Shown: positions 2,034 through 54,099 of the stretch, piece by piece
How the letters are laid out: the number at the start of each line of letters is the position of its first letter
Position numbering within the stretch: the stretch's first letter is position 1
Origin: an uncultured Gemmatimonadales bacterium
GTDB lineage: Bacteria; Gemmatimonadota; Gemmatimonadetes; Gemmatimonadales; GWC2-71-9
Direction of reading: 5' to 3'
NCBI GenBank assembly: GCA_963748815.1
Contig: CAVVKJ010000005.1
Coordinates: 256,001-320,000 of the forward strand
DNA: 64,000 nucleotides
The notes under the pieces: model-generated
What the model saw: only the letters and a program-made list of their open reading frames with translations
Told to the model about the DNA's origin: nothing
Databases searched by the model: none
Position numbers and translations under genes: made by a program

Positions 2034-3172
2034 CTATCGCTGATCCAGAAACTCGAGGATGCGTTCGGCGCGACGGTCCGACGACAGGTTCGGCGGCACG
2101 GGTGCAGGCCGCGGCGGAAGCAGCTGGCCGGCCAGCGCCGGCATCCGTAAGGACCCGGGTGATCGCTGCCGCCCACGATTCCGGCGTTGCCTCGGCCACC
2201 AGCCCGCAGGGACCCCGATCGAGGAGATCCCGGATGCCGGGGAGATCGCTCGCCACCGTGGGGATACCGTAGGCGAGGTACTCGAGCACCTTGAGCGGCG
2301 TGCCAATGTGGTTGCGCGGCGTGATGGCCAGAGGGGCCAGTCCGAGGTCGAGACGGGCCTTGATCGCCTCGAGTTCACGCGGCGACAGCCACGCCGACAC
2401 CTCGACACGATCCCCCACCCCCAGGGAGGCGGCGCGTTCTCGCATCGACGTCGCTTCCGCCTCGCTTCGGGCGCCAACCATGAGGAGCCGGCAGCCGGGC
2501 ACCTCGACGAGGCCGATGGAGCGGAGCACCAGGTCGAGGTCGTAGCGGTCCGCATCGAAGCTGCCGAGATACCCGATCGTGGCTCCGCCACTTCCCCGCC
2601 GGGCCCCGCGGCGATTGGATGGTTTGACGCCGCTGAGGGCGGTGAAGAATCGCTGGTTCGGGAAGCTCCGGAGATAGTACTGGCGCTGCGGCGCGGAGAC
2701 GCAGACGACCCCGTCCACCCGGGGCAGCCAGCGCCGCTCCCGCCGCGCCTGCTTCTCCCCCGAGCGCCCGGCGGGATCGTCGCGCAGGCTGGCGTCGGCG
2801 TAGAAGTCGTGTGATTCGAAGATCACGCCGCCCCCCGCGGAGACGACGCAGCACCAGCGCCCAGGGGAGGAAGCCGAGGTTGCGCGTGATGAGGACGTCC
2901 CAGCGGGCGAACCAGAGGTGCCAGAACGCCAGGAAGTGCACAAGGCGGTGGGAGCGGCGGAACGGGCCGGCATGGAGCAGGCGTACGGGCACAGGGGTGG
3001 GAATGCCGAATTCCTGTTCCAGTACGGCGTCGACGCCCGTGGTGGTGTTCGCGACGGTGATCAGTTCGAAATCGGCGCCAAGCTCCGCGAATCCGAAGGC
3101 GTTCCAGGTGACAAACGTCGTGCTGGGGGAGGCGCTCGGCCAGAGACCGTGATGGAAGTACTTAATCCGCAT
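2034..3172 (-). CDS. Glycosyltransferase family 4, frameshifted (at least 2 indels)
   Basis: N-terminus MRIKYFHHG in one frame, 'IFESHD...PLKVLEYLAYGIPTVASDLPG' in a second, C-terminus 'RAERILEFLDQR' in a third. Confidence 0.8.
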
Positions 3173-4360
3173 CGGCCGCGAGCACTTCCCGGTACAGGGC
3201 GAGGAGACGCTCCTCCATCCGTTCCCAGTTCAGCTCGTCCGCAAACAGCCGCGACGCCGCGGCCGACATCGGCCGCCGCGGCCGGATCGGCGGCAAGACG
3301 GTCGATGGCGTCGCCAGCTCCGCCCCAGCGCCCGGCCGCGGGATAGCACGATGCCGCACCGCCCGTCGCGAACGAGGGGACCCATGATCGGGTGCTCCAG
3401 CGTCGACGATCGGGAAGGCCGAACCGGAGGTAGTTGAAGAACTTGTTCGGCGTGCCGGTCAGCGCGTTGGGCGTCTCGTTCAGGCAGAGCCCCGCGTGAC
3501 CGCTGCGCAACCAGTCCGGCACCTCCTGGTAGGGCAGCAACCCGGTGAACGTGGAATCGCTCGCGCCGTGCCGTCCCGCGTCGGTCTGTGCGTTGAACCA
3601 CTCGAGCTCGGCCGACGGGAGGTCACCGATGACCAGGAAGCGCACGCGCGGCGAGCGGAGCAGCCGGGCCGCGTCCACCACGGGCGCAGCCCGCGATCGA
3701 ACAGGAGCCGCCCCTCGTGCACCACCCAGAAGGTGCCGTCTCGGCGGCAGGGCGGGCTCGCCTGCGGGCGAAGAGGCGGGCCGACTGGCTGTTCATCACC
3801 GTCACGACCGGCTTGTCGGTCAGGGTGCGGTAGTACTCGCTGATGAAGTCGCTGACCGTGACCACGCCGTCGGCTGCGGCGAGCATCCGGTTTTCGGTGG
3901 TGACGTAGTGGGGGAGCTTTCGCCGCTTCTCCTCGCTGAGGCGCAGCCGATGCAGGAAGAACTCGTGAAAGTCGAAGATGAGCTTCGTGTTCGGGAGTCG
4001 CTGCCTTCAGCTCCGCCGCCACGTCCATCGTGATGCCGTCCTCGTGGAAGTGGCAGATGTCGGGCTGGATGCGCTCGAGCGCGGCGAGGATGTCGCGACG
4101 AGCAGATGGCGAAGCGCAGTCCGAAGTTCTTCGGAATCCACCGGCGGTAGGGGTAGCTCTCGAAGCGCACCCCCTCGCGGACGAAGCGGGCCGCGATCCC
4201 GGGACCCGATGGTCCTTCCGCCGGCCGAGCCACCTGCCAGAGAGTCCGGGCACGAGAACAACCACCTCGTACCCGGCCCGGGCGAGGGAGGCGCCTCCTT
4301 GAAGAAGATGCGACCGTCGAAAGAGCGGTGCTCGAAGATGACGTGACAGACCCGTTTCAC
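3162..4360 (-). CDS. Glycosyltransferase family 4, frameshifted (several indels)
   Basis: Fragments 'KRVCHVIFEHRSFDGRIFFKE', 'PDICHFHED', 'ADGVVTVSD', 'PNKFFNYLRFGLP' and 'LNWERMEERLLALY' lie in different frames; GTGA overlap with the wecB stop. Confidence 0.8.
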
Positions 4361-5472
4361 GGCGTCGTCCTCCCGCGCGGTGCGCGTGCGATGAGCCGCG
4401 CAATCGCTTCCCCGGCCGCGCCGCCGCCATACATCGCCTGCGCGGGTTCGCCGGGCCGGGGCCGCGCAAGCGCCTCGCGCAGCGCGGCCTCCACCGCCTC
4501 GGCGGACACAGGCGGCACCAGTCGGTTCCACCCCGCCTCCACCAGTTCCGTCCACTCCGTCTCGTGTCGAAGCGTGAGGCAGGGAACCCGCTGGAAGAAC
4601 GCCTCCTTCTGCACGCCGCCCGAATCCGTGACCACCAGCCTCGCGCCGCGCTCCAGCGCCAGCATGTCGAGGTACCCCACCGGGTCGATCAGCCGGAGTC
4701 CGGGCGCGCGTTCCGGTCCGGGGCCCTGTTCGGAAAGTATGGCGCGGGTGCGGGGATGGAGGGGCAGCACCACCGGCACCTCCGACGCGACGGCCGCCAG
4801 GCCGGCGAGAATGTGTCCCAGCCGTTCGGGCGAATCGGTGTTCTCCGCACGATGAACGGTCGCCAGCACGTAGGATCCCGGCTGCAGTCGCTCCCGGGCC
4901 AGAGCCTCGCTCCACTCCGCGGCACGCGGGGCGAGGTGCAGGACGGAATCGTACATCACGTCCCCGACGAGGTGACACTGCTCCCGGGCGACCCCTTCGC
5001 GGGCCAGGTGCGCCATCGCCGTGGGCGTCGGCGCGAAGAGGAGCGACGCCACGTGGTCGGTGACGATGCGGTTGATCTCTTCGGGCATGGAGCGATTGAA
5101 CGAACGGAGGCCTGCTTCGACGTGGGCCACCGGGATGTGGAGCTTGGCCGCCGCCAGGGCCCCGGCGAGCGTCGAGTTGGTGTCGCCGTAGACGAGGACC
5201 CAGTCGGGCCGAGTCGTCGTCAGGACCTCCTCGATCGCCTCCAGCATCCGTCCGGTCTGCTGGCCGTGCGGCCCGGAGCCAATGCCGAGGTTCCACTCCG
5301 GTGCGGGGATCTCAAGTTCGTCGAAGAACACATCCGACATTTGGGCGTCGTAGTGCTGCCCGGTGTGCAGCAGGCGCTCGCGAACTCCTCCGTGCGCGGT
5401 CAGGGCGCGACTCACGACGGCGGCCTTGATGAACTGTGGTCGTGCGCCGAGGATGGAGACGACGTCGGTCAT
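4357..5472 (-). CDS. wecB: UDP-N-acetylglucosamine 2-epimerase (non-hydrolysing)
   Basis: Motifs GARPQFIK, HTGQHYD, YGDTNST, HVEAGLRS, TVHRAEN and TDSGGVQKEA. Confidence 0.93.
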   Translation of the reverse strand: MTDVVSILGARPQFIKAAVVSRALTAHGGVRERLLHTGQHYDAQMSDVFFDELEIPAPEWNLGIGSGPHGQQTGRMLEAIEEVLTTTRPDWVLVYGDTNSTLAGALAAAKLHIPVAHVEAGLRSFNRSMPEEINRIVTDHVASLLFAPTPTAMAHLAREGVAREQCHLVGDVMYDSVLHLAPRAAEWSEALARERLQPGSYVLATVHRAENTDSPERLGHILAGLAAVASEVPVVLPLHPRTRAILSEQGPGPERAPGLRLIDPVGYLDMLALERGARLVVTDSGGVQKEAFFQRVPCLTLRHETEWTELVEAGWNRLVPPVSAEAVEAALREALARPRPGEPAQAMYGGGAAGEAIARLIARAPRGRTTP

Positions 5473-6585: not shown

Positions 6586-7065
6586 TCAGCCTGCCGCCGG
6601 GTCGGCGAGCGACGCGACGTTGGCGGCATCGGTGAACGTGAGCGATTCCGAATTCACGCAGTAACGGAGTCCGCTGGGCCGCGGTCCGTCCTCGAAGACG
6701 TGGCCGAGATGCGCGTCGCAGCGGGCGCAGAGGATCTCGGTCCGGCGCATGCCGTAGGACCGGTCCTCGTGAGTCGTCACGTTTTCGGCGGCGATCGGCT
6801 GAAAGAAGCTGGGCCACCCCGTGCCCGAATCGAACTTGGCGTCCGAGACGAAGAGCGGGAGCCCGCAGCAGAGGCAGGCGTACACGCCGTCGCGCTTGTT
6901 GTCGAGGAGGGTGCCGCAGTGGGGCGCCTCGGTCCCCTTGCCCCGGGCAATCCGGTACTGGGTCGGGGAGAGCTGCGCCTGCCACTCTGCGTCGGACTTC
7001 ACGACAGGCGGCGCTTCCACCGGGCCGACCAGCTGACCCTCGCGATTGAACAGCTTGATGCGCAT
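6586..7065 (-). CDS. msrB: Peptide-methionine (R)-S-oxide reductase
   Basis: GTE, two Zn CxxC pairs, [21 protein letters not shown] and RYCVNS. Confidence 0.95.
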
Positions 7066-7075
7066 GGGTGTCCGC

Positions 7076-7603
7076 CTATTCAAACGCCGGCGGGAGTGGG
7101 TTGCCGGGGCGCTCGGCATCCCAGAACACGGACAGGACCCACCAGCGGCTTCCGTCCCAGAGCAACTGGATGGAGTTGATCCCGCGCGCAAACGGCGTTG
7201 TCTCGGTGCCCCGGAAGCTCTGATAGGAACTGAAGGCCTGCGCGATCGTGCCGTACCGCTCGGTCGACCGCTTCAGTTCCAGCTCCCGAAAACCGATCGC
7301 GACCAGGAACGAATCCGCTCGGGTGCGATACTCATCCGGCGTCATGATCCGGACACCACACCGGCCGGCGGTGTCGCACCGGGTGGGCATGAGGCGGGCC
7401 TCGGGATGCATGAGCGACAGGAACCGATCCCACTGCCGCGGCTGGCCCGCGGGGCCGCTGATCACGGCGTACAGCGTCGTGATGATGCTGTCGATCGTGC
7501 CGACATCGGTGGGGCGTGTGGCAGGCCGGTCCTGCGCGGTGCCGGCAGCAATGCCCGTGACGGTGAAGAAGGCGAGGAGGAGCGTCGGGCGAATGCGAAG
7601 CAT
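7076..7603 (-). CDS. Secreted NTF2/SnoaL-like hypothetical protein
   Basis: Signal peptide; '[16 protein letters not shown]' and '[18 protein letters not shown]'. Confidence 0.7.
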
Positions 7604-7639
7604 GTCAACACTTTCCGGGAGGGGGCGGCGCGATCGAGC

Positions 7640-7978
7640 CTACCGGTCCCAGTGCAGGGTATGGAAGAGCCGGTGCAGCAGCGGGGCGAGCAGCAGGCCG
7701 GCGGCAAAGATGAAGACGAGGCCGGCAAAGAGAGCGTAGAGCCCCGCGAACAATTTCCCGTTGTCAGTCCGGGGCGCGTTGACCGGCCCCATGCCCCCAA
7801 GCAGCATCGCCGAATTCAGGAAGGCGTCGCGCCAGGGCAGCTCCTCAAAGTGATGATATCCCGCCATGCCGATGGCGAGGGAAAGGGCCAGCAGCACCAA
7901 CACGGCGCCGAAATGCCTCGCGAGTCGCTCAAGGAACCTGCGGACCGGTAACGGTCGATCCCTGCGTGATTCATACAT
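7640..7978 (-). CDS. Small two-TM ion-channel-like (Ion_trans_2) protein
   Basis: TM, then pore-helix-like 'WRDAFLNSAMLLGGMGP', then 'GKLFAGLYALF' TM. Confidence 0.7.
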   Translation of the reverse strand: MYESRRDRPLPVRRFLERLARHFGAVLVLLALSLAIGMAGYHHFEELPWRDAFLNSAMLLGGMGPVNAPRTDNGKLFAGLYALFAGLVFIFAAGLLLAPLLHRLFHTLHWDR

Positions 7979-8044
7979 GGCTTTTCCCTTCACAACTGCG
8001 ACCGCGACACCAGGTGCATCAACACCGGGACGTCGCACCCCGGT

Positions 8045-8354
8045 TCAGGCGGACACCTCGTGCCAGAAGGTGATGTCCGGCGGACCGGCGAAGATGGCCG
8101 CGGCGCCCTGGATGAACGCCTGGATGTGCGGGGTCTGCATATGGGGCCCGGTGTAGGCCGCCTGGGAGGTCCAGCGTTCGTACAGCAGGAACCGGGTGTC
8201 GTCGGCGGCGTCCTGTAACGTGGTGATGCCGAGGCAGTCCGGCTCCTTGGCGAGCACCGTCCCGGATCAGGGGGGCCAGGGCCGCCCGGGCGGCCGCGCC
8301 CTTGCCGGGCTGCGCGCGATAGAGGATGACGACGGTGACGGGCTGAGCGGCCAT
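8045..8354 (-). CDS. ABM / putative quinol monooxygenase, one frameshift
   Basis: 'VTVVILYRAQPGKG' continues in another frame as 'EPDCL...FLLYERWTS..AY..HMQTPH'. Confidence 0.75.
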
Positions 8355-8378: not shown

Positions 8379-9746
8379 TTACCGAATATTTCCCCCCGCC
8401 GGCGATTCCGCCAGCACCAGGCGCGCCTCCTCGCCCGCGGCGGCAGTCAGGTCCTGATTGCCCATGACCACGCCGACCTTTTTCAGGAATGCGTTCGGCG
8501 GTTCGCCGCCGGCAAACACCCACATCCAGTCGTTCGGCAGCTCGGTGACCGTTCCTCCCGCCGAGAGCAAGATCGATTTTTCCCGAACCTCGGTCGGCTG
8601 GGATTCGAACACCACCCGGAGCTTCTTCCCCTTCACCGCCTCCTGCAGCTTCTGCGCGTTGCGTTCCTTGATCCGGCTGAACTCCGCCTGCCGGTACGAA
8701 AGGGTGACCTGGTTCCCCTTCTGGTACGCGAGGCCGAGCGCCGCCTCGACGGCGCTGTCGCCGCCGCCGACCACGAGAATCTTCGAGTTGATGTAGGCGT
8801 CCGCCTCGATCAGGCTGTACATGACCTTGGGGAGCTCTTCTCCCGGGATGTTGAGCTTCCTCGGCGTGCCCCGACGGCCCAGGGCCAGGACCACATGCCG
8901 CGCCCGGTAGCTGCCCCCAGCACTCGCGATCCGAAACGTGCCGTCGGCCTCCCGGTCGATGGTCTGCACCTTTTCCTGGGTCCGAATGGTGAGGTCGCCC
9001 CGTGCGATCACAGAGGCCCAGAACGCGAGCAGCTCCTCCTTCGAGATCTCCATCTTCTTGAACCGGCCGTGGAGCGGGAACTCCACCGGACTTGTCATGA
9101 CCAGCTTCTGCCGGGGGTACTTGGCCACCGTCCCACCGATCTCCTCCTGCTCGAGCGTCACGTAGCTGAGCGCCCGCTCCACGGCGCGCAGCGAGGCGCT
9201 CAACCCGCCCGGGCCCGCCCCGACGATGCAGACGTCGAGGACATCGGGGGAACTGGGTTGGGACGCGACCCGGCGGGCGATGGTGTCCATGCACTCGCGG
9301 CCCTGGTTCACCGCGTTCTTGATGAGGGCCAGCCCGCCGAGTTCCCCGATGATGAAGAGGCCGGGGATGTTGGTCTCGTACTCGCGCGAGAGCCGCGGCA
9401 TGTCGGCGCTGATGCTCGGGTCGGCCATCACGATCTCGATGGCGCCGACCGGGCAGGCGTCGGCGCAGAGGCCATGGCCGATGCACTTGTGGCCGTTGAC
9501 GATGGCGGCCTTGCCGGCGATCACCGCCAGGACATTCCCCTCCGGGCAGACGTCCACACAGGCACCGCAGCCGATGCAGTGCGACACGTCGATGTGCGGG
9601 TGCTGCGCCCGCGGCCCGCCGGAGTGGAGCTTGCCCCGTTCCGCGGCCGCCAGCGCCGCCCGCTCCCGCTGGCGCGTCTTCCGGATGTGAAGCAGCAGCG
9701 GGCCGATGAGGAAGAGGCCAAACACCGTGTAGATCAGCAGGTCCAT
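8379..9746 (-). CDS. Membrane-anchored 2x[4Fe-4S] ferredoxin fused to a TrxB/YpdA-like FAD/NAD(P)H oxidoreductase
   Basis: N-terminal TM; CIGCGAC..CP and CIGHGLC..CP; GAGPGG (FAD) and VVGGGDSA (NADPH); no TrxR CxxC. Confidence 0.85.
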   Translation of the reverse strand: MDLLIYTVFGLFLIGPLLLHIRKTRQRERAALAAAERGKLHSGGPRAQHPHIDVSHCIGCGACVDVCPEGNVLAVIAGKAAIVNGHKCIGHGLCADACPVGAIEIVMADPSISADMPRLSREYETNIPGLFIIGELGGLALIKNAVNQGRECMDTIARRVASQPSSPDVLDVCIVGAGPGGLSASLRAVERALSYVTLEQEEIGGTVAKYPRQKLVMTSPVEFPLHGRFKKMEISKEELLAFWASVIARGDLTIRTQEKVQTIDREADGTFRIASAGGSYRARHVVLALGRRGTPRKLNIPGEELPKVMYSLIEADAYINSKILVVGGGDSAVEAALGLAYQKGNQVTLSYRQAEFSRIKERNAQKLQEAVKGKKLRVVFESQPTEVREKSILLSAGGTVTELPNDWMWVFAGGEPPNAFLKKVGVVMGNQDLTAAAGEEARLVLAESPAGGNIR

Positions 9747-9976
9747 GGTCGCTCAGTGGTGTGAGTTCATCGGCGATGCAGGCTGCGAAGGGTACGGGCA
9801 GAGTGCACGTGCGGTGGATCACATTCGCCCGACGGATGGTCCGTCCCCGTGACGCGCAACGCACCGTTTGCGCCGTTTCTGCTGCGCATCACGGGTGCTC
9901 GCCGGGGCCGCGGGATCGCCCAGCCCCGCGCTAACCGCATTCCGCGGCCCTTCCTTGAAACACGCCGATACATATG

Positions 9977-9994
9977 TAATGAATCGTTTCACAT
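9977..9994. promoter_or_regulatory. Possible Rex-like operator in an AT-rich divergent promoter region
   Basis: TAATGAA-TCGT-TTCACAT against consensus TTGTGAA-N4-TTCACAA (3 mismatches). Confidence 0.3.
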
Positions 9995-10205
9995 CGGCGC
10001 CTGACCAAACTCGTCAAGTATTGTCTAACACTATGATAAATAAGGCGTTGTGGTGATTTCTTACAATCCAATCGTCTGGGTAGGATCCTTGCTGAATAGG
10101 GCTCCGTATTCCTACGGCCCCGCCCATTCGCGAGTCCACCATGCCACCCCCGCCAGGCGGGGGTCGGGGGGACGGGTCGCCGTCAACCAAACGACCGAAA
10201 GCTCG

Positions 10206-11196
10206 ATGCCTACTTCGAATCTGGCTCCATCCCCTCGGGCCGCCGCGTCGGCGGACCGCCGTCCCGCCACGGGCGGGGCGCCGGCGGTGCGCGTTCACGC
10301 GCCGCGCCGCCCGGTGTCGAAGCCGAAGCGTTCACAGGCCACGACCGCCGCGCTGATCTTCGGGGTCGCTGCTCGTGGCCCTGAATCTATTCGGCATGCG
10401 GTATTACCTGCTTCCGCGCGCCGAGCAGGTCCGGGACCCGCTGCACGCCTGGCTCCGCCCGTCCGGCTATCTCGGCCAGGGCGCCGGTGTGCTGGCGCTC
10501 CTGATCTTTCTCTTTCTCTGGCTCTATCCCCTGCGGAAGAAATTTCGGTGGCTCGCGTTCACCGGCGCCATTTCCAAGTGGTTGAACGTACACGCGCTGG
10601 CCGCGCTGGGCCTTCCCCTGCTGGTGGCGGCGCACGCCACCTGGCAGTTCGGCGGCGTGATCGGGCTCGGGTTCTGGTCGATGATGGTGGTGTGGCTGAG
10701 CGGCATCGTCGGTCGCTACATCTACGCCCGCATTCCGCGCAGCCAGGCCGGCGTGGAGCTGACCATCGAGGAAATCGCCGCCCAGCGCCAGGAACTGCTC
10801 GACGACATCGCCGGGCTCTCGGGGCTCGACGCGAGGGAAGTCGAAGGGCTGCTGGCGCCCGATGCCGCCCCGACCGCCGGCCTCTCGTTGTGGCAGACGA
10901 TGCGGCGGATGGTGTCCGATGACCTCGCGCGACGTCGTGCCGCGGCGACCCTCCGCCAACAGATCAAGCAGCGCCGCCCCATGGCTCGGCGCGACGACGC
11001 GGCGGCCCTGAAAGAAGTCCTCCGGCTGGCCAATCGGGAAATGGCGCTGGTGCAGCAGTCCCGCATGCTCGGCGCGACCCAGAACATCCTCCGCTTCTGG
11101 CATGTCGCCCACCGCCCCCTGGCGATCACCGCGCTCGTGGCGGTGATCATCCACGTCGTGGTGGTCGTGTCGCTGGGCGCCACGTGGTTCCGGTAG
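10206..11196 (+). CDS. Ferric-reductase-like (di-heme cytochrome b) inner-membrane protein, probable extra G at 10362-10365
   Basis: TM His pairs 'VHALAALGLPLLVAAH' and 'WHVAHRPL...IIH'; 'LYPLRK' and 'SGIVGRYIY'; removing one G joins ATG 10206 to the 10375 ORF and restores the TM 'ALIFGSLLVALNLFGM'. Confidence 0.75.
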
Positions 11197-13241
11197 GCCA
11201 GCGGCTCGATGGCCTCCTGCGCGGACTTGCTCGTGCCGGCCTCCTGGCCCTCGGCTGGGGCCTGCTCATGACGGCGCCGCTGGCGGGCCAGATCTCGCCC
11301 GGGCCGCTCGCCGCGCCCCATGCGACGCTCGAGGGGCCGACGCAGTGTACCACGTGTCACGGCAACCGCCGCGACGCGATGACAGGCCAGTGCGCCGCGT
11401 GTCACAAGGACATTGGCCGGTTGCTGGAGCAGGGGCGCGGCTTTCACGGGAGCGCTTCCGTGAAGGGGACGCCCTGCGCCTCCTGTCATCCAGATCACGC
11501 GGGGAAGGATTTCGCCATGGTGAAGTGGCCGGACGGCAGCGCCGAGACCTTCGACCACAAGCGCGCGGGATGGGCGCTGGCGCAGAAGCACGCCGAGGCC
11601 ACGTGCGAGGATTGTCACACCGACGAGTTCCAGGTGCCGGGAGTGAAGCGTCTCTCCGTCCGGAAGACCGGGCAGGGCTACACCGGGCTGGACACCACCT
11701 GCACCACCTGCCACGAGGACATCCACCGCGGCGCCCTCAAGCAGACCTGCACGGCGTGCCATGATGCCGGTTCCTGGACGGTCACCCCGGGGTTCAACCA
11801 CGACACGACCGCCTATGCGCTGACCGACAAGCACGCCGAGGTGAAGTGCGACAAGTGCCACCTCGACGCCCGGCTTGCGCCCCGAAGCGACGGCAAGGGC
11901 CATCTGGTTCCGGTCTACAAGCCGGTGTCGTTCGAATCCTGCGCCGACTGCCATGCCGACCCGCACAATGGCGGGTTGGGGCCAAAGTGCGCCGACTGCC
12001 ATAGTACCAGGGGCTTTCAGGTCATCGACAAGAATCGCTTTGACCATGACCGCACCAAGTATCCGCTGCGCGGCAAGCATGTGACCACCCCCTGCGCGAG
12101 CTGCCACAAGGACTTCTCGACCCCAGCGCTGAAGAAGCCGGTGTTCGCCGCCTGCACCGACTGCCACAAGGACGCCCACAACGGAACGGCCACGCTGGCC
12201 GGCAAGACGGTCGATTGCACTTCGTGCCATTCGGTCAACGGCTTTGCCCTGTCGACGTACACGACCGCGAGTCACGCGTCGACCCCGTACCCGCTCGAAG
12301 GAAAGCACCTGGCGGTGCCGTGTGCCGCCTGCCACACCCGGAGCACCGCGGCCGCCGCCGCGAAGACGCTTGGGAGCGCCAGGGTGGTGATGCGGCCGAA
12401 GTACGCCCGGTGCCTCGACTGCCACTCGGATGACCACGGCGGCCAGTTGAAGTCGAGCGCCGATCAGGGCGAATGCGCCAGCTGTCACCGCGTCACGGGG
12501 TGGACACCGAGCACCTTCGACAGCGCGGCGCACGCGAAAACCACACTGGCCCTCGACGGGCGACACCAGGAGATCGACTGCGTCGCCTGTCATGGCGCCG
12601 GGCGCCCCGGCCTGCCGCCTCTGCCGGCCAGCCCCGCCCTTGGCAAGGCCAAGTTCCGCTTTCAGCTCAACGAGACGGAGTGCTCGGCGTGCCACAGTGA
12701 CCCGCACACCGGGCGCTTCGCCAGCGGCGGAGCCCGAGCGCAGTCCGGCGGCTGCCCGACTTGTCACAGCACCCGCGTCTTCCGTCCGTCCACGACCACC
12801 GTGGCGGTGCACGCCCTCTTCGATTTCCCGCTCGAGGGCGCGCACCGGGCCACGGCGTGCTCGGCGTGCCACGAGGAGTTGACCCGGCCGCCAGCCACCC
12901 AGACGCAATCCACGCTGGTGCTGGCGCGCACCCGGTTCGGCACGCTCCAGTTCACGGCGAAGCGCGCATGCGCGGACTGCCACGAGTCGCCGCACGGCGA
13001 CCAGTTTGCCGCGTGGGACACCAAGGGGAGCTGCGCGGCCTGCCACACGCAGGACGCGTTCGTGCCTGCGGCGGCGTTCAACCACGATACCGATGCATCG
13101 TTCGCGCTGAAGGGCGCCCACGAGGCCGTCCCGTGCGCGCGGTGCCACGTTCGCGATGCGGCGACGCCGTCCACGGCGCCGCTGCGCTATCGCCCGCTCT
13201 CCGGAAGCTGCGAGACCTGCCACGGCAAGGAGTCCCCATGA
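11184..13241 (+). CDS. Secreted multiheme cytochrome c (23 CxxCH)
   Basis: Signal-like N-terminus ending APLAG-Q; 23 CxxCH counted by hand; triheme modules with 'H....(F/Y)PL.G.H' distal His. Confidence 0.93.
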   Translation: MVPVGQRLDGLLRGLARAGLLALGWGLLMTAPLAGQISPGPLAAPHATLEGPTQCTTCHGNRRDAMTGQCAACHKDIGRLLEQGRGFHGSASVKGTPCASCHPDHAGKDFAMVKWPDGSAETFDHKRAGWALAQKHAEATCEDCHTDEFQVPGVKRLSVRKTGQGYTGLDTTCTTCHEDIHRGALKQTCTACHDAGSWTVTPGFNHDTTAYALTDKHAEVKCDKCHLDARLAPRSDGKGHLVPVYKPVSFESCADCHADPHNGGLGPKCADCHSTRGFQVIDKNRFDHDRTKYPLRGKHVTTPCASCHKDFSTPALKKPVFAACTDCHKDAHNGTATLAGKTVDCTSCHSVNGFALSTYTTASHASTPYPLEGKHLAVPCAACHTRSTAAAAAKTLGSARVVMRPKYARCLDCHSDDHGGQLKSSADQGECASCHRVTGWTPSTFDSAAHAKTTLALDGRHQEIDCVACHGAGRPGLPPLPASPALGKAKFRFQLNETECSACHSDPHTGRFASGGARAQSGGCPTCHSTRVFRPSTTTVAVHALFDFPLEGAHRATACSACHEELTRPPATQTQSTLVLARTRFGTLQFTAKRACADCHESPHGDQFAAWDTKGSCAACHTQDAFVPAAAFNHDTDASFALKGAHEAVPCARCHVRDAATPSTAPLRYRPLSGSCETCHGKESP

Positions 13242-15667
13242 GGCGCATCACGCTTCCGGTGCTGGTCCTGCTGGTCGGGCTCCTCGCGGGCACCGCACAG
13301 GCGCAGGACCGGACCACGTCTCCGCACGGCGACCTCAAGCTGGAATGCACCGTCTGCCACCAGTCGAGCAGCTGGAACGCGATCCAGGTGAGCCACCAGT
13401 TCGACCACGGGAAGTTCGGCTTCCCGCTGACCGGCGCCCACGGGGCGACCACCTGCCGCGCCTGTCACGTCTCGCTCGACTTCAAGCAGGCGAGCAGCAG
13501 CTGCGCCGCCTGTCATACCGACAATCACCGCGGCGAGTTCGGCACCGACTGCGCCCGGTGCCACACGACCCGGAGCTTTACCGACCGCGACGCGATGCTC
13601 AAGGAGCACCAGCTGCGCCGCTTTCCGCTCACCGGCAGCCATCTGGCCACGGACTGCACCACCTGCCACAAGCCGGGGGCGCGGGGCCAGCTGCAGTTCG
13701 TCGGCACGCCCGCGACCTGTGTGGCCTGTCACCAGGTGAACTACAACACCGCACCCAACCACCGGGCATCGAACTTCCCAACCACGTGCGAAACCTGCCA
13801 CTCGACCGTGAGCTGGAACACGGCCAACATGGGGGCGGCCAACCACCCCACGGCGCCGATTGCTCTGACCGGCGTGCACAGCAGCAACCTGGTCAGCTGC
13901 GGGCAGTGCCACACGACGACGCCCTATTCGACGGTCCAGACGACCTGTGTGGCCTGTCACCAGGCGGATTACAACGGCGCGAAGGATCCCGATCACGTGG
14001 CGGCGAAGTTCTCGACCACCTGCACGGACTGTCACGGCCTGGTGGCCGGGTGGCTCGGCGCCAAGTTTGACCACCCCACCACGCCGGTGGCCCTGACGGG
14101 CGCGCACAGCTCGAACCTGGTGCAGTGCTCGCAGTGCCATACGAGCATGCCCTACTCGACGGTCAAGCAGACCTGCGACGGCTGCCACCATGCGGAGTAC
14201 GTGGCCACCAGCAACCCGAACCATGCCGCGGCGGGCTACACCACCGATTGCGCCTCCTGTCACCAGGTGGTGGCCAACTGGGCCGGGGCGACGGTGAACC
14301 ACCCCTCGACGCCGATTGCCCTCACCGGGGTGCACAGCTCCAACCTGGTCAGCTGCACCCAGTGCCACACCACGACGCCGTACTCCACGGTGAAGACGAC
14401 GTGTGTGGCCTGTCACCAGACCGACTACAACGGCGCCAAGGATCCCGACCACGTGGCCGCCAATTTCTCGACCACCTGCACCACCTGCCACGGCCTCGTG
14501 GCCGGGTGGGCCGGCGCGACGTTCAGCCACCCGACCACTCCCATCGCGCTGACGGGGGCGCACAGCGCCAACCTGGTGAGCTGCTCCCAGTGCCACACCA
14601 CCATGCCGTATTCCACGGTGAAGCAGACCTGCGACGGCTGCCACCACGCCGACTATGTGGCCACCAGCAATCCCAACCACACCGCGGCGGGCTACGGGAC
14701 CGACTGCGCCAGCTGCCACCAGGTGGTGGCCAACTGGGCCGGGGCCACGGTCAACCATCCGACGACCCCGATCGCCCTGACCGGTGTCCACAACGGCAAC
14801 CTGATCGCGTGCGCCCAGTGCCACACCACGATGCCCTACTCCACGGTCAAGCAGACGTGCGACGGCTGCCACCACAGCGAGTACGTGGGAGCCAAGGACC
14901 CCGATCACGTGGCCGCCAGCTTCTCGACGAACTGCACCACTTGCCACGGCCTGGTGTCGGGGTGGCTCGGCGCCACGTTCAGCCATCCGACCAGTCCCAT
15001 TGCGCTGACGGGGGCGCACAGCGCCAACCTGGTCAACTGCTCGCAGTGCCACACGACCATGCCGTATTCCACGGTCAAGCAGACCTGCGACGGCTGCCAC
15101 CATGCGGACTATGTGGCCACGACCAACCCGAGCCACACGGCCGCCGGGTACTCGACCGACTGCGCGACCTGTCACCAGGTGGTGGCCAACTGGGCGGGGG
15201 CCTCGCTGAACCACCCCACCACGCCCATCGCGCTGACCGGCGTCCACAGCAGCACGGCGGTGCAGTGCACGCAGTGCCACACGACCATGCCGTACTCCAC
15301 CGTCAAGCAGACCTGCGACGGCTGCCACCACGCGGAGTACGTGAGCACCACGGACCCGAACCACACGGCGGCCAGCTTCTCGCTGACCTGCACCACCTGC
15401 CATTCGCTGGCGGCCAACTGGGCGGGAGCGCGGTTCACCGCGCATGACGGCAGCATCTCGCAGTTCCGGATCTACAGCGGCAAGCACAACGGCAAGTGGA
15501 GCCAGTGCTCGGAGTGCCACAAGCTCGGTCAGCCGTACGCGGCCACGCCGCAGCTGCTCTGTCTCAACTGCCATGCGAAGGTGCAAACGGACAAGCACAA
15601 GGGGAAGAACTACACGCCCAGCGATTGCGTGCGCTCGGGCTGCCACGCGAACGGAACGTCGCCGTGA
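13238..15667 (+). CDS. Secreted multiheme cytochrome c (30 CxxCH + 1 CX4CH), 809 aa
   Basis: ATGA overlap with the upstream stop, GGAG SD, signal peptide ending AQA-Q; motifs counted by hand. Confidence 0.93.
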   Translation: MRRITLPVLVLLVGLLAGTAQAQDRTTSPHGDLKLECTVCHQSSSWNAIQVSHQFDHGKFGFPLTGAHGATTCRACHVSLDFKQASSSCAACHTDNHRGEFGTDCARCHTTRSFTDRDAMLKEHQLRRFPLTGSHLATDCTTCHKPGARGQLQFVGTPATCVACHQVNYNTAPNHRASNFPTTCETCHSTVSWNTANMGAANHPTAPIALTGVHSSNLVSCGQCHTTTPYSTVQTTCVACHQADYNGAKDPDHVAAKFSTTCTDCHGLVAGWLGAKFDHPTTPVALTGAHSSNLVQCSQCHTSMPYSTVKQTCDGCHHAEYVATSNPNHAAAGYTTDCASCHQVVANWAGATVNHPSTPIALTGVHSSNLVSCTQCHTTTPYSTVKTTCVACHQTDYNGAKDPDHVAANFSTTCTTCHGLVAGWAGATFSHPTTPIALTGAHSANLVSCSQCHTTMPYSTVKQTCDGCHHADYVATSNPNHTAAGYGTDCASCHQVVANWAGATVNHPTTPIALTGVHNGNLIACAQCHTTMPYSTVKQTCDGCHHSEYVGAKDPDHVAASFSTNCTTCHGLVSGWLGATFSHPTSPIALTGAHSANLVNCSQCHTTMPYSTVKQTCDGCHHADYVATTNPSHTAAGYSTDCATCHQVVANWAGASLNHPTTPIALTGVHSSTAVQCTQCHTTMPYSTVKQTCDGCHHAEYVSTTDPNHTAASFSLTCTTCHSLAANWAGARFTAHDGSISQFRIYSGKHNGKWSQCSECHKLGQPYAATPQLLCLNCHAKVQTDKHKGKNYTPSDCVRSGCHANGTSP
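13844..15439 (+). repeat. Seven tandem 228-bp (76-aa) triheme coding repeats with alternating A/B variants
   Basis: The His codon of 'HP..PIALTG.H' recurs at 13844, 14072, 14300, 14528, 14756, 14984 and 15212. Confidence 0.95.
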
Positions 15668-17892
15668 TCACCGTCCACACGCTCCCGGGGCGCATGCGAT
15701 GGCCGCTTGCCGCGCTCCTGCTCACGTTCCTCGGAGCGGGGCAGGCCCGCGCCCAGCATTTCGGGCCCGACTCCGCCCCGCTCGGGGCGCAGGCCGCGGT
15801 CGGGCCCGCGGTGGTGTACCTCCACGAGGGCGGCTCCATCCGCGGGACGTTGCTGGCCGACAACGGGCCGAACGGTGTCCGCATCCGGAGCCAGAAGTCG
15901 GGCGCGACGTTCGTGGTGCCGGCGTCGAATATCGACAGCGTCGTGCGGGGGCCCTTCGAGCCGTCCGCCGGGCCGGAACCGACGTCCGTAGCTGTGGCGG
16001 CCACCACCCCGACGCAGGCGCCGGCGGTCAATTCGGGTGCGGCGGTGGCGCTGACCCTGACCGCGGTCAAGCCTGCTCAAGTCCCCACGAAGGCTCCACC
16101 GCCGGCCGCACCAGCGGCGTCCAAGCCGGCGGAGTCGGCGCCGTCGTCCATTCCGGCCTCCGCGCCGGTCGCCGTCAAGCCGACGGAGGTCGCTGCCCCG
16201 ACCACACTCCAGGCGGGACTCGACACCCCACCTCCCACATTCCAGATCCCTGCCACGAACGCGGCGCTGCCTGCCGCGGCGCCGGATACGGTGCCTGCCG
16301 TACCGGACACCGTGCCTGCAGCACCCGATACCGCAGCGGTGATTTCGAGCATCACCTTCATCTCCGGCACCGAGATCTACATCGGCGCGGGCCGCCAGGA
16401 CGGCCTGGTGGAGGGGTCGGTGGTGGAGGTCGTTCGGGGAGACAGCGCGGTGGCCACGCTGCGCGTGAAGTTCCTCGCGTCCCACAAGTCCAACACCGAG
16501 CTGGTCAAGGGGACGCCTGAGCTCGCCCTGGGGGACAGTGTCCGGTTCCATCGGCACGTGGCGACGGAGCAGATCGCGATCGGGGGGCCGATTGCCGCAC
16601 CGCGGCCCCGCCGGCTGAGCGGCCAGGGCTTGCACGGCCGCATCGGCAGCCGCTACCTCCGCGCCACCACGAGCACGGTCGCGGAGGGCCAACCGGCGTG
16701 GAGCAACGGGTTCAACCAGCCCTCGCTGGACGCGCGCCTCTATGGGCTGAACATTGGCGGCACGCCGCTCGGCGTGGCCGTCGATCTCCGGGCCCGCCAG
16801 ACGACGACCTCCTCGGCTGGCGGAACGACCGTGGACGGTCACACCCGGGCGTACCAGGCGGTGCTGTTCTGGAACGCGCCGGACGCCAAGTTCCGGATGG
16901 CGGCCGGGCGCCAGTACCTCACCTATATCAGCTCCATCGGCCTGTTCGACGGCGGCCTGGTCGAACTCAATGGCCGGCACCTTTCCTTTGGCGCCTTCGC
17001 CGGCTGGGAACCGGACGCGTCGACACTGCAGTTTTCGAGCACGGTCCACGATTACGGCGCGTACCTGACCGTGCACAACGCGCCGGGCGGCCTGACGTCC
17101 AGCGCGTTCACCCTCGGGGCCGTCGGTTCCTACGAGGGGAGCACCGAACGCCGAGAGTGGGGCATCGCCCAGGCCAACATCAGCAACCGGTACCTGTCGC
17201 TCTACCTGCTGCAGGAAATCGACTACTACCAGCCCTGGAAGCTGGAGGGCCCCAACGCCGAGTCGAGCGCGGTCTCGTTCACGAGCCAGTTCGCCAATGT
17301 GTCCGCTCGTCCGAAGCCGTGGCTCTCGATCAACGCCACCTACGACAAGCGACGCAATGTCCGCCTCATCCGGGACTTCACCAACCCGGAGACGACCTTT
17401 GACGACGCCTATCGCGAGGGCTACGGCGGGGGAGTGCAGTACTCCGGCCAGCGCTTCTACCTGGGTGGCGACTGGCGGCGGAGCACCGGCGCGACCGTGC
17501 TCGGCGCCAACTCCTATACCGCCACGCTGGGCGCCAACCGGGTCGCGCCGCTCGGCCTCGGCTTCTCGGTACGCGCCACCTGGTACCAGAATCAGAACGA
17601 CTCGAGCGCCGTCAACCCCGGGTCGGTCCAGACTGACGGCCACCTCTACTCAGGCCACGTGAACTTCGATCCCACCAACGCGATTCACGTTGACCTGAAC
17701 GGCGGCGTCCGCCAGGAGGACAATCCGGCGTTCGTCGAGCGGCAGAAGTCCACCTGGTACGGCATCGACCTGGACGTCGCGCTGGCGCGGCAGTGGTACC
17801 TCTCCCTCTCCGGATTGCGGCAGCAGGACCCCGCCAACCCCGGCACCAGCCAGCTGACCCAGATCTACAGCGGACTGACCTGGCGGTTCTGA
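15664..17892 (+). CDS. Outer-membrane beta-barrel (porin-like) with N-terminal domains and a Pro/Ala linker
   Basis: GTGA overlap with the cytochrome stop (alternative ATG at 15694); signal peptide; amphipathic strands; C-terminal beta-signal 'YSGLTWRF'. Confidence 0.8.
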   Translation: MITVHTLPGRMRWPLAALLLTFLGAGQARAQHFGPDSAPLGAQAAVGPAVVYLHEGGSIRGTLLADNGPNGVRIRSQKSGATFVVPASNIDSVVRGPFEPSAGPEPTSVAVAATTPTQAPAVNSGAAVALTLTAVKPAQVPTKAPPPAAPAASKPAESAPSSIPASAPVAVKPTEVAAPTTLQAGLDTPPPTFQIPATNAALPAAAPDTVPAVPDTVPAAPDTAAVISSITFISGTEIYIGAGRQDGLVEGSVVEVVRGDSAVATLRVKFLASHKSNTELVKGTPELALGDSVRFHRHVATEQIAIGGPIAAPRPRRLSGQGLHGRIGSRYLRATTSTVAEGQPAWSNGFNQPSLDARLYGLNIGGTPLGVAVDLRARQTTTSSAGGTTVDGHTRAYQAVLFWNAPDAKFRMAAGRQYLTYISSIGLFDGGLVELNGRHLSFGAFAGWEPDASTLQFSSTVHDYGAYLTVHNAPGGLTSSAFTLGAVGSYEGSTERREWGIAQANISNRYLSLYLLQEIDYYQPWKLEGPNAESSAVSFTSQFANVSARPKPWLSINATYDKRRNVRLIRDFTNPETTFDDAYREGYGGGVQYSGQRFYLGGDWRRSTGATVLGANSYTATLGANRVAPLGLGFSVRATWYQNQNDSSAVNPGSVQTDGHLYSGHVNFDPTNAIHVDLNGGVRQEDNPAFVERQKSTWYGIDLDVALARQWYLSLSGLRQQDPANPGTSQLTQIYSGLTWRF

Positions 17893-17905
17893 GCGACAAC
17901 GAAAG

Positions 17906-17928
17906 CGGGGCGGCCACTGGCCGCCCCG
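17906..17928. terminator. GC-rich hairpin between the convergent porin and dacB genes
   Basis: CGGGGCGGCC-ACT-GGCCGCCCCG preceded by GAAAG. Confidence 0.65.
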
Positions 17929-53027: not shown

Positions 53028-53396
53028 ATGACCGAACCGCGTGCACCACGCCGGGTGTTGTTCATCGAAGATGAGCCCGCCCTGCGCATCAGCTACGAAC
53101 GCTTCTTCCGGCCGCGCTACGCCATGGCGTTTGCGTCGTCGGGGGCGGAGGCGCTGGCCCGGGTCGCCGAGGGGCCGCTGGACGTCGTGGTGCTCGACAT
53201 GCGTCTCCCCGACACCGACGGCGTCGAGCTGCTCCGGCGCATCCGCGAAACCCATCCGGACATCCCCGTCATCATCACCACCGCCTACGTGAGCGTGGAG
53301 CCGCAGCTTCGCGTCCTCGACCTGGCGCACAGCGCCTACCTGATCAAGCCCTTCGACCTCGACGAACTCGGCGCCGCCATTGATCGAGCCGGCTGA
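53028..53396 (+). CDS. Single-domain response regulator
   Basis: IEDE, LDMRLPD, ITTAY and IKPF. Confidence 0.9.
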   Translation: MTEPRAPRRVLFIEDEPALRISYERFFRPRYAMAFASSGAEALARVAEGPLDVVVLDMRLPDTDGVELLRRIRETHPDIPVIITTAYVSVEPQLRVLDLAHSAYLIKPFDLDELGAAIDRAG

Positions 53397-54099
53397 CGCA
53401 CCCCTCCTGGCGGCGCGCGGCCTGGTGCGCGCCTTCGGGGCGTTGCAGGTCCTGCGCGGCGTGGATCTCGAGGTGCGGCGCGGCGAAATGCTGGCGGTCG
53501 CCGGCTCGAACGGCGCCGGCAAGACGACGCTGCTCCGGCTCCTGGCGGGGCTCATGCGCCCCAGCGCTGGCGAGGTGCACATCCACGGCCGGCGGCTGAC
53601 CCGCGACGACCCGGCGCCCCGGCGCGCCATCGGGCTCCTGTCGCACCACACCTTTCTCTACGACGACCTCACCCCGGCGGAAAACCTCCTCTTCACGGCC
53701 AAGCTGTACGGCCTCCCCGACGCCGCGGCCGCCACCCGTACGGCGCTCGACGAAGTCGGGCTTTCCGCGCGCGCCAACACCCCCGTGCGCCACCTGAGCC
53801 GGGGCCTCCTGCAGCGCGCCGCGATTGCCCGCGCGCTGCTGCACCAGCCCGACGTCATCCTCCTCGACGAGCCGTTCACCGGGCTCGACGCGCCGTCCGC
53901 CGACCGATTCCGGGGGCTGCTGGCGTCGCAACTGGCCCGGGGCCGGGCGCTGGTGCTGGTCAGCCACCATCTTGCCGAGGCGTGGGAACTGGCGACCCAC
54001 GTGGCGGTGCTGGCCGGCGGTCGCTGGGCGCTCGAGGGCGAGCGCCCCGCCGACCTCGCGGCCTTTCACGCGCGCTACGCTGAGTTGGTCCATGGTTGA
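53380..54099 (+). CDS. ccmA: Heme exporter ATP-binding subunit
   Basis: GSNGAGKT, LSRG, LLDEPFTGLD; followed by ccmBC. Confidence 0.85.
   Translation: MIEPADAPLLAARGLVRAFGALQVLRGVDLEVRRGEMLAVAGSNGAGKTTLLRLLAGLMRPSAGEVHIHGRRLTRDDPAPRRAIGLLSHHTFLYDDLTPAENLLFTAKLYGLPDAAAATRTALDEVGLSARANTPVRHLSRGLLQRAAIARALLHQPDVILLDEPFTGLDAPSADRFRGLLASQLARGRALVLVSHHLAEAWELATHVAVLAGGRWALEGERPADLAAFHARYAELVHG

What the first reader, a model, noticed from the sequence alone, without database searches (positions are those of the whole stretch)
8379..17892. Candidate NAD(P)H-to-exterior electron conduit: flavo-FeS reductase, cytochrome b, 53(+1) c-hemes and a porin
Seen: a four-gene operon with overlapping starts and stops (13 bp, ATGA, GTGA). 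It encodes a His-paired ferric-reductase-like membrane protein, secreted 23-heme and 30(+1)-heme cytochromes, and a beta-barrel ending in TWRF. It shares a divergent promoter with a TM-anchored 2x[4Fe-4S]/FAD/NAD(P)H oxidoreductase. Known: porin-cytochrome complexes such as MtrAB/MtoAB move electrons across the outer membrane. The set of inner-membrane protein, two large multiheme cytochromes and a porin recalls the predicted PCC3-type clusters. Inference: this is a complete path from NAD(P)H through FAD, FeS, heme b and a c-heme wire to the porin, possibly without quinone. It sits in a probable Gemmatimonadota genome, a group not typically studied for extracellular electron transfer.
Basis: partly seen in the sequence, partly recalled or inferred. 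Interest (0 to 1): 0.9.

Follow-up and report, generated by a model that had tools for sequence, protein, structure and literature searches.

The report
Flavoprotein-fed PCC3 heme wire operon
This is a real five-gene set that looks built to pass electrons from NADPH inside the cell, through both membranes, along about 54 hemes to the outside; four parts match a predicted but untested system called PCC3, and the fifth, an iron-sulfur flavoprotein, appears to be an overlooked standard partner of that system.

Summary
The genes are real. They encode a five-helix membrane protein with both WX3HX13H motifs, 23- and 30(+1)-heme secreted cytochromes and a 22-stranded barrel. This is a PCC3-type cluster (He 2017), predicted but never tested. 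One correction: the membrane gene starts at 10207, and its frameshift near 10368 is an assembly error.

The divergent flavoprotein is not a local accident. In 47 long loci from many phyla it lies beside the membrane gene in 46 and a large cytochrome in 47. In 91 Gallionella-family genomes the two genes co-occur in 45 and are both missing in 45. They are fused in both orders; one order gives an NADPH-oxidase-like layout. The flavoprotein is a circularly permuted YpdA/TrxR-fold enzyme without CxxC, with an NADPH-type site and a His at one cluster position.

Best reading (0.55): NADPH to FAD, FeS, two b-hemes and a c-heme wire, running outward. That step would spend membrane potential, so it suits a redox valve or outside reductase rather than respiration or iron oxidation. 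Binding, direction, acceptor and quinone independence are not shown. I found no paper naming this partner. This scan noted the same system before on other DNA.

The parts
8379..9746 (-). Membrane-anchored flavo-iron-sulfur oxidoreductase (455 aa): N-terminal helix, ferredoxin domain (C57/C60/C63/C67 and C88/H91/C94/C98), circularly permuted YpdA/thioredoxin-reductase fold, NADPH-type site (GGGDSA, SYR), no CxxC
   Evidence: Pfam/NCBIfam; PDB sequence matches; conservation
9808..9823 (.). Conserved CRP-like palindrome about 60 nt upstream of the reductase start; function unknown, label recalled
   Evidence: 18 of 25 intergenic regions against a shuffle mean of 0.8; pattern chosen after seeing the alignment, kin not independent
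9956..9991 (.). Two tandem imperfect 17-bp palindromes, candidate regulator site
   Evidence: looser pattern in 16 of 25 intergenic regions, strict one in 12 of 25; post hoc
10083..10108 (+). Candidate ECF-sigma-type promoter (GGATCC, 16 nt, CGTA) ahead of the operon; the ECF label is recalled
   Evidence: 15 of 25 intergenic regions, all close kin; post hoc; no sigma-70 site found
10207..11196 (+). PCC3-type inner-membrane protein (about 329 aa, five helices, predicted two b-hemes, about 120-residue helical insert on the cytoplasmic side); one-base assembly error at about 10363-10370; His motifs at 10579-10635 and 11098-11154, SGxxG at 10699
   Evidence: defining motifs from PMC5566968
11184..13241 (+). 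23-heme cytochrome c with a signal-peptide-like N-terminus; orthologue of the periplasmic PCC3 cytochrome; 24 further His, enough for bis-His ligation
   Evidence: 28-31% identity over about 570-710 columns, E 1e-53 to 1e-68, to the 21-27-heme cytochromes of 10 proteobacterial loci
13238..15667 (+). 30(+1)-heme cytochrome c with a signal-peptide-like N-terminus, about seven 76-residue three-heme repeats and a conserved C-terminal cap; repeat number varies among kin; candidate outer wire
15664..17892 (+). Outer-membrane beta-barrel, 22 strands, preceded by a signal peptide, a small genus-specific domain, a Pro/Ala-rich linker and a small beta domain
   Evidence: AlphaFold model of residues 221-742, pLDDT 85; fold searches; HHalign to proteobacterial PCC3-layout porins 98.3%, E 2e-14
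17904..17928 (.). G+C-rich hairpin between the barrel gene and the convergent dacB-like gene; terminator-like on the minus strand
   Evidence: (4 such sites found in the region, 4.1 expected by chance)

Best explanation
A split, NADPH-oxidase-like electron exporter wired to a PCC3 heme conduit. The membrane-anchored flavoprotein takes a hydride from NADPH on FAD and passes single electrons through its ferredoxin domain to the cytoplasm-side b-heme of the five-helix protein. The second b-heme passes them to the 23-heme periplasmic cytochrome, then to the 31-heme cytochrome, which reaches or threads the 22-stranded barrel and reduces something at or beyond the cell surface (Fe(III), humic quinones, other metals, particles or cells). 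Shown here: the parts, motifs, barrel fold, co-occurrence, synteny and fusions. Inferred: cofactor binding, contact between partners, order of the cytochromes, outward direction, surface exposure. Moving electrons outward across the inner membrane discharges the membrane potential, as NADPH oxidases do (established knowledge), so the likely role is a redox valve or an assimilatory or protective outside reductase, not energy-conserving respiration.
For: Partnership: reductase-anchored loci hold the membrane gene in 71 of 80, and in 46 of the 47 loci of at least 20 kb; those 47 hold a cytochrome of 10 or more hemes in 47 and a barrel in 46. Reverse test in 91 genomes of the family of a Gallionella-labelled genome: strong membrane-gene match in 45, reductase in 46, both in 45; 43 of 48 reductase genes lie within 1.5 kb of a membrane gene. 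Own kin: 27 of 61 and 28 of 61, all 27 shared. Joint absence in 120 of 121 genomes of a Bacteroidota class. Fusions in both orders, reductase-membrane (L136-L138, P0003, P0004) and membrane-reductase (L133-L135). A second module pairs a distant membrane homologue with an unpermuted YpdA-like reductase plus Fe-S domain in 5 of 5 loci examined. Four His are invariant in 106 of 106 membrane proteins. The reductase has no CxxC in 0 of 86 rows and keeps an NADPH-type site. In Sideroxydans ES-1 both PCC3 clusters were lower on Fe(II) than on thiosulfate (PMC8788666). MsrQ is a precedent for a cytosolic NADH oxidoreductase feeding a membrane heme protein (PMC12525009 abstract).
Against: Nothing biochemical has been measured for this cluster or, in the papers seen, for any PCC3. 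11 of 56 strong membrane-gene copies in the Gallionella-family sample have no reductase within 10 kb, and 2 of 21 genomes with the membrane gene in the phylum of G062 show no reductase at E<=1e-70. Fold matches of the membrane model to di-heme proteins are only middling (Z 7.8-8.6). Neither cytochrome shows a lipoprotein signal by eye, and the 31-heme protein resembles the periplasmic PCC3 cytochromes more than the 'extracellular' ones, so surface exposure is not shown. MsrQ also binds ubiquinone, so a quinone site cannot be dismissed. One PCC3 membrane gene in Sideroxydans CL21 rose when cells oxidised iron (10.1101/2025.02.27.639646). Many genomes are kin, so the counts are not independent events.
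Confidence: 0.55

Rival explanations
1. Published PCC3 model with a side branch: the membrane protein exchanges electrons with the quinone pool (inward from Fe(II) or other outside donors, or outward from quinol), and the flavoprotein is an accessory NADPH entry to the same hemes or to quinone.
For: He 2017 proposed a quinone-active cytochrome b. MsrQ binds ubiquinone. Some membrane-gene copies lack a nearby reductase (11 of 56). A CL21 PCC3 membrane gene was up in iron-oxidising cells.
Against: Near-perfect co-occurrence and fusion in both orders are more than a dispensable branch would need. Every genome with a strong membrane-gene match in two samples also has the reductase (45 of 45, 27 of 27). 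ES-1 PCC3 fell on Fe(II).
Confidence: 0.2
2. Periplasmic store or oxygen-related role: NADPH charges a large heme capacitor, or feeds periplasmic repair or oxygen/superoxide chemistry; the barrel anchors or secretes the cytochrome but electrons do not leave the cell.
For: The related porin-less module shows that the reductase-membrane pair can end in a small periplasmic cytochrome. The best named fold matches are superoxide oxidase, STEAP4 and NOX5. A stress-type promoter motif is conserved in close kin. Hoover 2023 mentions a capacitor role.
Against: The barrel is kept in 46 of 47 long loci. The second cytochrome varies from about 7 to 64 hemes while the first mostly stays at 17-24, as expected if one spans a fixed gap and the other is free to extend.
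Confidence: 0.15
3. Inward conduit: electrons from very low-potential outside donors (partner cells, conductive particles, metals) are taken in to reduce NADP+ through the flavoprotein acting as a ferredoxin:NADP+ reductase.
For: The fold is that of TrxR-type ferredoxin:NADP+ reductases, which are reversible (established knowledge). The cluster is common in iron oxidisers that need NADPH.
Against: Inward flow to NADP+ runs against the membrane potential and, from Fe(II), against the redox gradient too (inference). Hosts include many presumed heterotrophs.
Confidence: 0.08
4. The flavoprotein is a stand-alone bacillithiol-type disulfide reductase that is only co-regulated with the cluster.
For: Closest solved relatives are YpdA/Bdr enzymes (E 1e-50), which also lack an active-site CxxC.
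Against: Score 176 against the TIGR04018 cut-off of 340; permuted, membrane-anchored, ferredoxin-fused; YpdA's GYY with the gating Tyr reads GRR here; fusions to the membrane protein.
Confidence: 0.02

Closest known systems
PCC3 porin-cytochrome c cluster (He et al. 2017, PMC5566968; Hoover et al. 2023, PMC9900912)
   Same: Five-helix membrane protein with SGxxG and two WX3HX13H motifs; about 21-27-heme periplasmic cytochrome; repeat-rich second cytochrome; 27-30 residues per heme; homologous porin; same gene order.
   Different: The passages read list four parts and a quinone link, with no flavoprotein. Here the barrel is a 22-strand form with a small beta domain rather than the longer TPR-bearing proteobacterial form; the second cytochrome has its own C-terminal cap and is closer to the periplasmic type; the host is outside Proteobacteria.
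NADPH oxidase / ferric reductase superfamily, including the two-component MsrQ plus flavin reductase system
   Same: Works like it: cytoplasmic NAD(P)H flavin module, paired H-x13-H helices for two b-hemes, outward one-electron transfer. The membrane-then-reductase fusions (L133, L134) give membrane helices followed by a cytoplasmic dehydrogenase.
   Different: The dehydrogenase is a TrxR-fold enzyme with a ferredoxin domain, not an FNR-family domain (recalled for NOX). No Pfam ferric reductase match. The acceptor would be a multiheme wire, not oxygen or MsrP.
MtrCAB / MtoAB porin-cytochrome complexes
   Same: Barrel plus multiheme cytochromes across the outer membrane; MtrB matches the barrel model at Z 14.9, rmsd 5.6, 361 aligned, as do many unrelated barrels.
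   Different: No decaheme MtrA/MtrC orthologue over the cut-off (TIGR03508 31.6 against 192 bits); no CymA-type quinol oxidase in the cluster; 22 strands against MtrB's 26 (recalled; He 2017 gives 28).
YpdA/Bdr and TrxR-type ferredoxin:NADP+ reductases
   Same: Fold, FAD and NADPH motifs, no CxxC.
   Different: The segment that normally follows the NADPH domain lies before the FAD motif (circular permutation); N-terminal membrane anchor and ferredoxin domain.
PCC4 and the porin-less cytochrome-plus-membrane-protein clusters of He 2017
   Same: Related membrane motifs; the paper says these clusters often carry 'another redox protein'.
   Different: PCC4 has 4-, 5- and 10-heme cytochromes. I could not see which redox domains the paper's Supplementary Figure 4 shows.

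Membership tests
PCC3 | About 300-aa inner-membrane protein, five helices, SGxxG on helix 4, WX3HX13H on helices 3 and 5 | tested here: met
   definition
PCC3 | Periplasmic multiheme cytochrome of about 21 hemes | tested here: met
   23 hemes; best BLAST matches are the 21-27-heme cytochromes of proteobacterial loci; location inferred from the N-terminus by eye
PCC3 | Second large, repeat-rich, T/S/A/G-rich cytochrome with 22-39 residues per heme | tested here: met
   30(+1) hemes, 27 residues per heme, 40% T+S+A+G, 76-residue repeats
PCC3 | That second cytochrome is extracellular | not testable with these tools
   signal-peptide-like start, no lipoprotein motif seen; variable length is only suggestive
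PCC3 | Outer-membrane barrel homologous to the PCC3 porin | tested here: met
   22-strand model; HHalign 98.3%, E 2e-14, 387 columns against 9 proteobacterial porins chosen by cluster layout, not by published locus tag
PCC3 | Conserved four-gene organisation | tested here: met
PCC3 | Extracellular electron transfer and quinone exchange (proposed, untested in the papers seen) | not testable with these tools
   needs experiments
Ferric reductase / NOX superfamily | Two H-x13-H pairs on helices 3 and 5 | tested here: met
   four His invariant in 106 of 106
Ferric reductase / NOX superfamily | Match to the ferric reductase transmembrane profile or fold | tested here: inconclusive
   no Pfam match; STEAP4 Z 8.1, rmsd 6.8, 166 aligned; NOX5 Z 7.8, rmsd 5.3, 149 aligned; superoxide oxidase Z 8.6, rmsd 3.6, 134 aligned; all in the range of common helical bundles
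Ferric reductase / NOX superfamily | FNR-family dehydrogenase domain (recalled) | tested here: not met
   the partner is of TrxR/YpdA fold; it works like a NOX at most and is not filed as one
YpdA/Bdr bacillithiol disulfide reductase | TIGR04018 cut-off | tested here: not met
   176 against 339.9 bits
YpdA/Bdr bacillithiol disulfide reductase | Gating Tyr and unpermuted domain order | tested here: not met
   GRR for GYY; permuted
Thioredoxin reductase | Redox-active CxxC in the NADPH domain | tested here: not met
   0 of 86 rows
MtrAB/MtoAB | Decaheme DmsE/MtrA-family cytochrome | tested here: not met
   31.6 bits against cut-off 192; 23 and 31 hemes

The most novel reading that the evidence does not exclude
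PCC3 is not a quinone-linked iron oxidase but a widespread NADPH-driven electron exporter: a two-part NADPH-oxidase analogue, built from a circularly permuted TrxR-fold flavoprotein with a His-ligated cluster and a di-heme membrane protein, plugged into heme wires of up to about 85 hemes. It would let bacteria of ten or more phyla send cytoplasmic reducing power outside the cell without quinones, at the cost of membrane potential.
Probability: 0.4. Interest if true: 0.85.

Novelty: new variant of a known kind. Interest (0 to 1): 0.62.

Why it matters
PCC3 clusters are counted as possible iron oxidases in several genome surveys but have no tested function. A near-constant NADPH flavoprotein partner gives a specific input, a favoured direction and a simple two-protein assay. 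If right, it adds a quinone-free route for extracellular electron transfer in Gram-negative bacteria and changes how PCC3 is read in iron oxidisers, sludge, soil and sediment genomes. Cultured or named carriers exist among the loci fetched (Yeosuana marina, Thermobacterium salinum, Novosphingobium aquae, Undibacterium sp.; a Myxococcus sp. fusion protein), so it can be tested. This particular locus is one more copy of the system.

Tried and rejected
Complex prediction of membrane protein plus reductase gave no answer (scores 0.07 and 0.02, mark 0.32); it is not evidence either way. Foldseek found no match for the membrane model at E<=0.001 and a profile search of PDB sequences found none below E 0.5. 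No RNA holder was listed among sequencing runs, so expression is unknown. A Rex box at 9975-9994 (11 of 14 recalled consensus bases; the genome has a Rex-type N-terminal domain) was rejected because relatives conserve a different palindrome there. A regulon could not be built: 4 strict ECF-like sites and one other palindrome site in the genome, with no clear link. Pseudogene status of the membrane gene was rejected. msrB and the two small genes downstream of the reductase travel with it only in some same-genus loci and are not counted as parts. P0001, P0002, P0232 and P0272 are long membrane-protein hits that look like misread frames and were not counted as fusions. Text searches of He 2017's supplements for reductase terms found nothing, but its tables and figures appear not to be held as text. 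A search for Melioribacter or myxobacterial work on such clusters gave only listings that I did not open.
Full report
Observation. A script counted 23 CxxCH motifs in 11184-13241 and 30 plus one CX4CH in 13238-15667. Each cytochrome has enough extra histidines for bis-His ligation, 24 and 38. The membrane gene needs a correction: its real start is ATG 10207, and the window has one extra base near 10363-10370. Two same-genus genomes lack that base and so do contigs from 4 of 4 short-read runs of two studies. The gene is intact in nature. The genome encodes cytochrome c maturation genes. The closest named loci are labelled Gemmatimonadota. Holders of half or more of the sampled words are biofilter and activated-sludge metagenomes (3 of 21 runs).

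The four-gene operon is PCC3-type. He et al. 2017 (PMC5566968; I read sections 15 and 16 whole and passages of section 17) define PCC3 as a porin, two large cytochromes and a five-helix membrane protein with SGxxG and two WX3HX13H motifs. The window's protein has all of these, as do 16 of 16 loci from kin and 96 of 110 full-length representatives from a search that found 4,042 relatives at E<=0.001. The four histidines are invariant in a 106-row alignment. An AlphaFold model of an intact relative (pLDDT 90) has five membrane helices and a helical insert of about 120 residues between helices 4 and 5; charge bias puts the N-terminus and this insert in the cytoplasm (inference). Fold matches to di-heme proteins are middling and tied with unrelated bundles, so membership of the ferric reductase superfamily is inconclusive. 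The 23-heme protein is most like the 21-27-heme cytochromes of proteobacterial loci. The last gene models as a 22-stranded barrel behind a small beta domain (pLDDT 85), matches outer-membrane barrels (FyuA Z 18.1, rmsd 5.3, 396 aligned) and is homologous to nine porins from proteobacterial clusters of PCC3 layout (98.3%, E 2e-14). One Amphritea locus has 63 and 21 hemes, the numbers He gives for an Amphritea species.

The flavoprotein is a standard partner. Among 61 genomes of own kin the membrane gene was found in 27 and the reductase in 28, all 27 shared. Of 16 loci fetched, 14 show the reductase: 11 divergent upstream and 3 convergent downstream; the other two end at contig edges. They are labelled Gemmatimonadota, Acidobacteriota, Bacteroidota and Ignavibacteria, Calditrichota, Marinimicrobia, Zixibacteria, Nitrospinales, Myxococcota, Verrucomicrobia and alpha-, beta- and gammaproteobacteria. 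The membrane gene is in 71 of 80. In the 47 loci of at least 20 kb it is in 46, a cytochrome of ten or more hemes in 47, two such in 44 and a barrel in 46. The reverse test used 91 genomes of the family of a Gallionella-labelled genome. Counting the 56 membrane-gene matches at E<1e-35 and setting aside 23 weaker rows, 45 genomes have both genes, one has only the reductase and 45 have neither (8 of these have a weak match). 43 of 48 reductase genes lie within 1.5 kb of a membrane gene, while 11 of 56 membrane genes have no reductase within 10 kb. In a Bacteroidota class sample both genes were found only in the centre genome, 1 of 121. In 71 genomes of the phylum of a Myxococcota-labelled genome the membrane gene was in 21 and the reductase in 22; all 18 genomes with a reductase at E<1e-130 have the membrane gene, three weaker reductase matches have none, and two membrane-gene genomes have no reductase match. 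Kin are not independent, so these are tallies and not tests.

Fusions. A search for longer relatives gave 4 proteins, two of them reductase-membrane fusions. A search with one fusion returned a large family; of 121 proteins held, 109 have at least 700 residues and 107 of those keep both His motifs; they are top hits to one query and largely kin. Six loci picked because both matches shared one reading frame show both orders: reductase first in L136-L138, membrane first in L133-L135, the last with a shortened membrane part. Five of the six have large cytochromes within the stretch fetched. Opposite orders imply at least two fusion events. The membrane-first form places membrane helices before a cytoplasmic dehydrogenase, as in NADPH oxidases. 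Five distant membrane homologues that I fetched (four of the 23 weaker rows and one from another genome) all sit beside an unpermuted YpdA-like reductase fused to cNMP-binding and Fe-S domains and a 9-10-heme cytochrome, with no barrel match. The pairing of this membrane family with a flavin/Fe-S reductase thus appears in two architectures.

The enzyme. Its core is closest to YpdA/Bdr and TrxR-type ferredoxin:NADP+ reductases but scores below the YpdA cut-off. The segment that follows the NADPH domain in the paralogues (E 4e-13 to 2e-17 in 5 of 5) lies in front of the FAD motif here, a circular permutation. There is no CxxC (0 of 86). GxGxxA and the Ser-Tyr-Arg motif (Arg in 86 of 86) point to NADPH (the rule is established knowledge). 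His91 replaces a cluster cysteine in 86 of 86, which means either a His-ligated [4Fe-4S] or a [3Fe-4S] cluster; such sites often serve as exit points (recalled).

Mechanism. Anchor, ferredoxin, two stacked b-hemes, a fixed-length first cytochrome (mostly 17-24 hemes) and a variable second one (about 7-64 hemes, 21-33 among same-genus loci) read most simply as a chain from NADPH outward. Outward flow is downhill in redox terms and favoured by the membrane potential, which it discharges. Inward flow from Fe(II) to NADP+ is uphill on both counts. So if the flavoprotein is the working partner, the system exports electrons and costs energy at the inner membrane (inference). This fits the fall of both ES-1 PCC3 clusters on Fe(II) (PMC8788666, passages and supplement rows) and their low to middling protein levels (PMC11429942, passages). 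It fits less well the rise of one CL21 membrane gene in iron-oxidising cells (10.1101/2025.02.27.639646, passages). MsrQ is fed by a cytosolic NADH oxidoreductase yet also binds ubiquinone (PMC12525009, abstract only), so 'without quinone' is open. The acceptor is unknown. The intergenic region keeps three motifs among close kin, including an ECF-type promoter candidate; the patterns were drawn after seeing the alignment and two duplicate rows were dropped from 27.

Novelty. Four parts are known from prediction. In the passages read from PMC5566968, PMC9900912, PMC13386937 and the three Sideroxydans papers, PCC3 has four parts and no flavoprotein. Seven literature searches listed no title or abstract on it; most listed papers were not opened. 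The library lacks most subscription journals, and I could not see He 2017's figures or supplementary tables. That paper does note further redox genes in PCC4 and in porin-less clusters, so partial prior notice is possible. For YpdA I read passages of 10.1101/2020.12.02.408641. This scan's earlier notes describe the same five-part system in at least ten other findings; I reached the reading before looking and treat them as leads only. Not seen in the short notes shown: the fusions in both orders, the permutation, the paralogous module and the energetic argument.

Verdict. A real, intact PCC3-type operon with a conserved, apparently undescribed NADPH flavo-iron-sulfur partner: a new variant of a known but untested kind. 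Interest 0.62.

Noticed in passing
L132:2456-9114 (G000:C10 about 1006455-1013113): A second multiheme cluster in the same genome: 8-, 18- and 16-heme cytochromes with an unmatched 556-residue frame between the last two, possibly a barrel of another family. The same trio lies beside the PCC3 cluster in L039.
   Followed up: partly
window 53380-55470: ccmA, ccmB-like and ccmC genes lie in the window about 36 kb from the operon; a second cytochrome c assembly gene lies at G000:C10:994058, about 12 kb from the second multiheme cluster.
   Followed up: partly
window 2375-4469, 8259-8262, 9932: Several more single-base insertions: short-read contigs lack a base at 8259-8262 and 9932-9935, and the glycosyltransferase-like frames at 2375-4469 look frameshifted. 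The assembly seems to carry homopolymer errors.
   Followed up: partly
window 15664-16323: The barrel's first 220 residues hold a small domain and a Pro/Ala/Thr-rich linker of varying length, seen only in close kin; repeated three times in L091.
   Followed up: no
L079:11254-13254, L093:11311-13329, L113:11239-13389: In several gammaproteobacterial loci a Sel1 plus ankyrin-repeat protein follows the reductase directly; a possible sixth component there.
   Followed up: no
L118, L119, L125, L126, L128: A porin-less sister module: YpdA-like reductase with cNMP-binding and Fe-S domains, distant membrane homologue, and an FHA-domain 9-10-heme cytochrome; may be cyclic-nucleotide regulated.
   Followed up: partly
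L130 (G000:C5:114436): A near-perfect copy of the 17-bp palindrome lies upstream of a secreted-looking protein and a sigma-54-type regulator-like frame.
   Followed up: no
window 6586-8038: msrB, an unknown 175-aa secreted-looking protein and a small membrane protein follow the reductase in some same-genus loci only.
   Followed up: partly
L042, L091: Two Gemmatimonadota loci appear to carry tandem second copies of parts of the operon.
   Followed up: no
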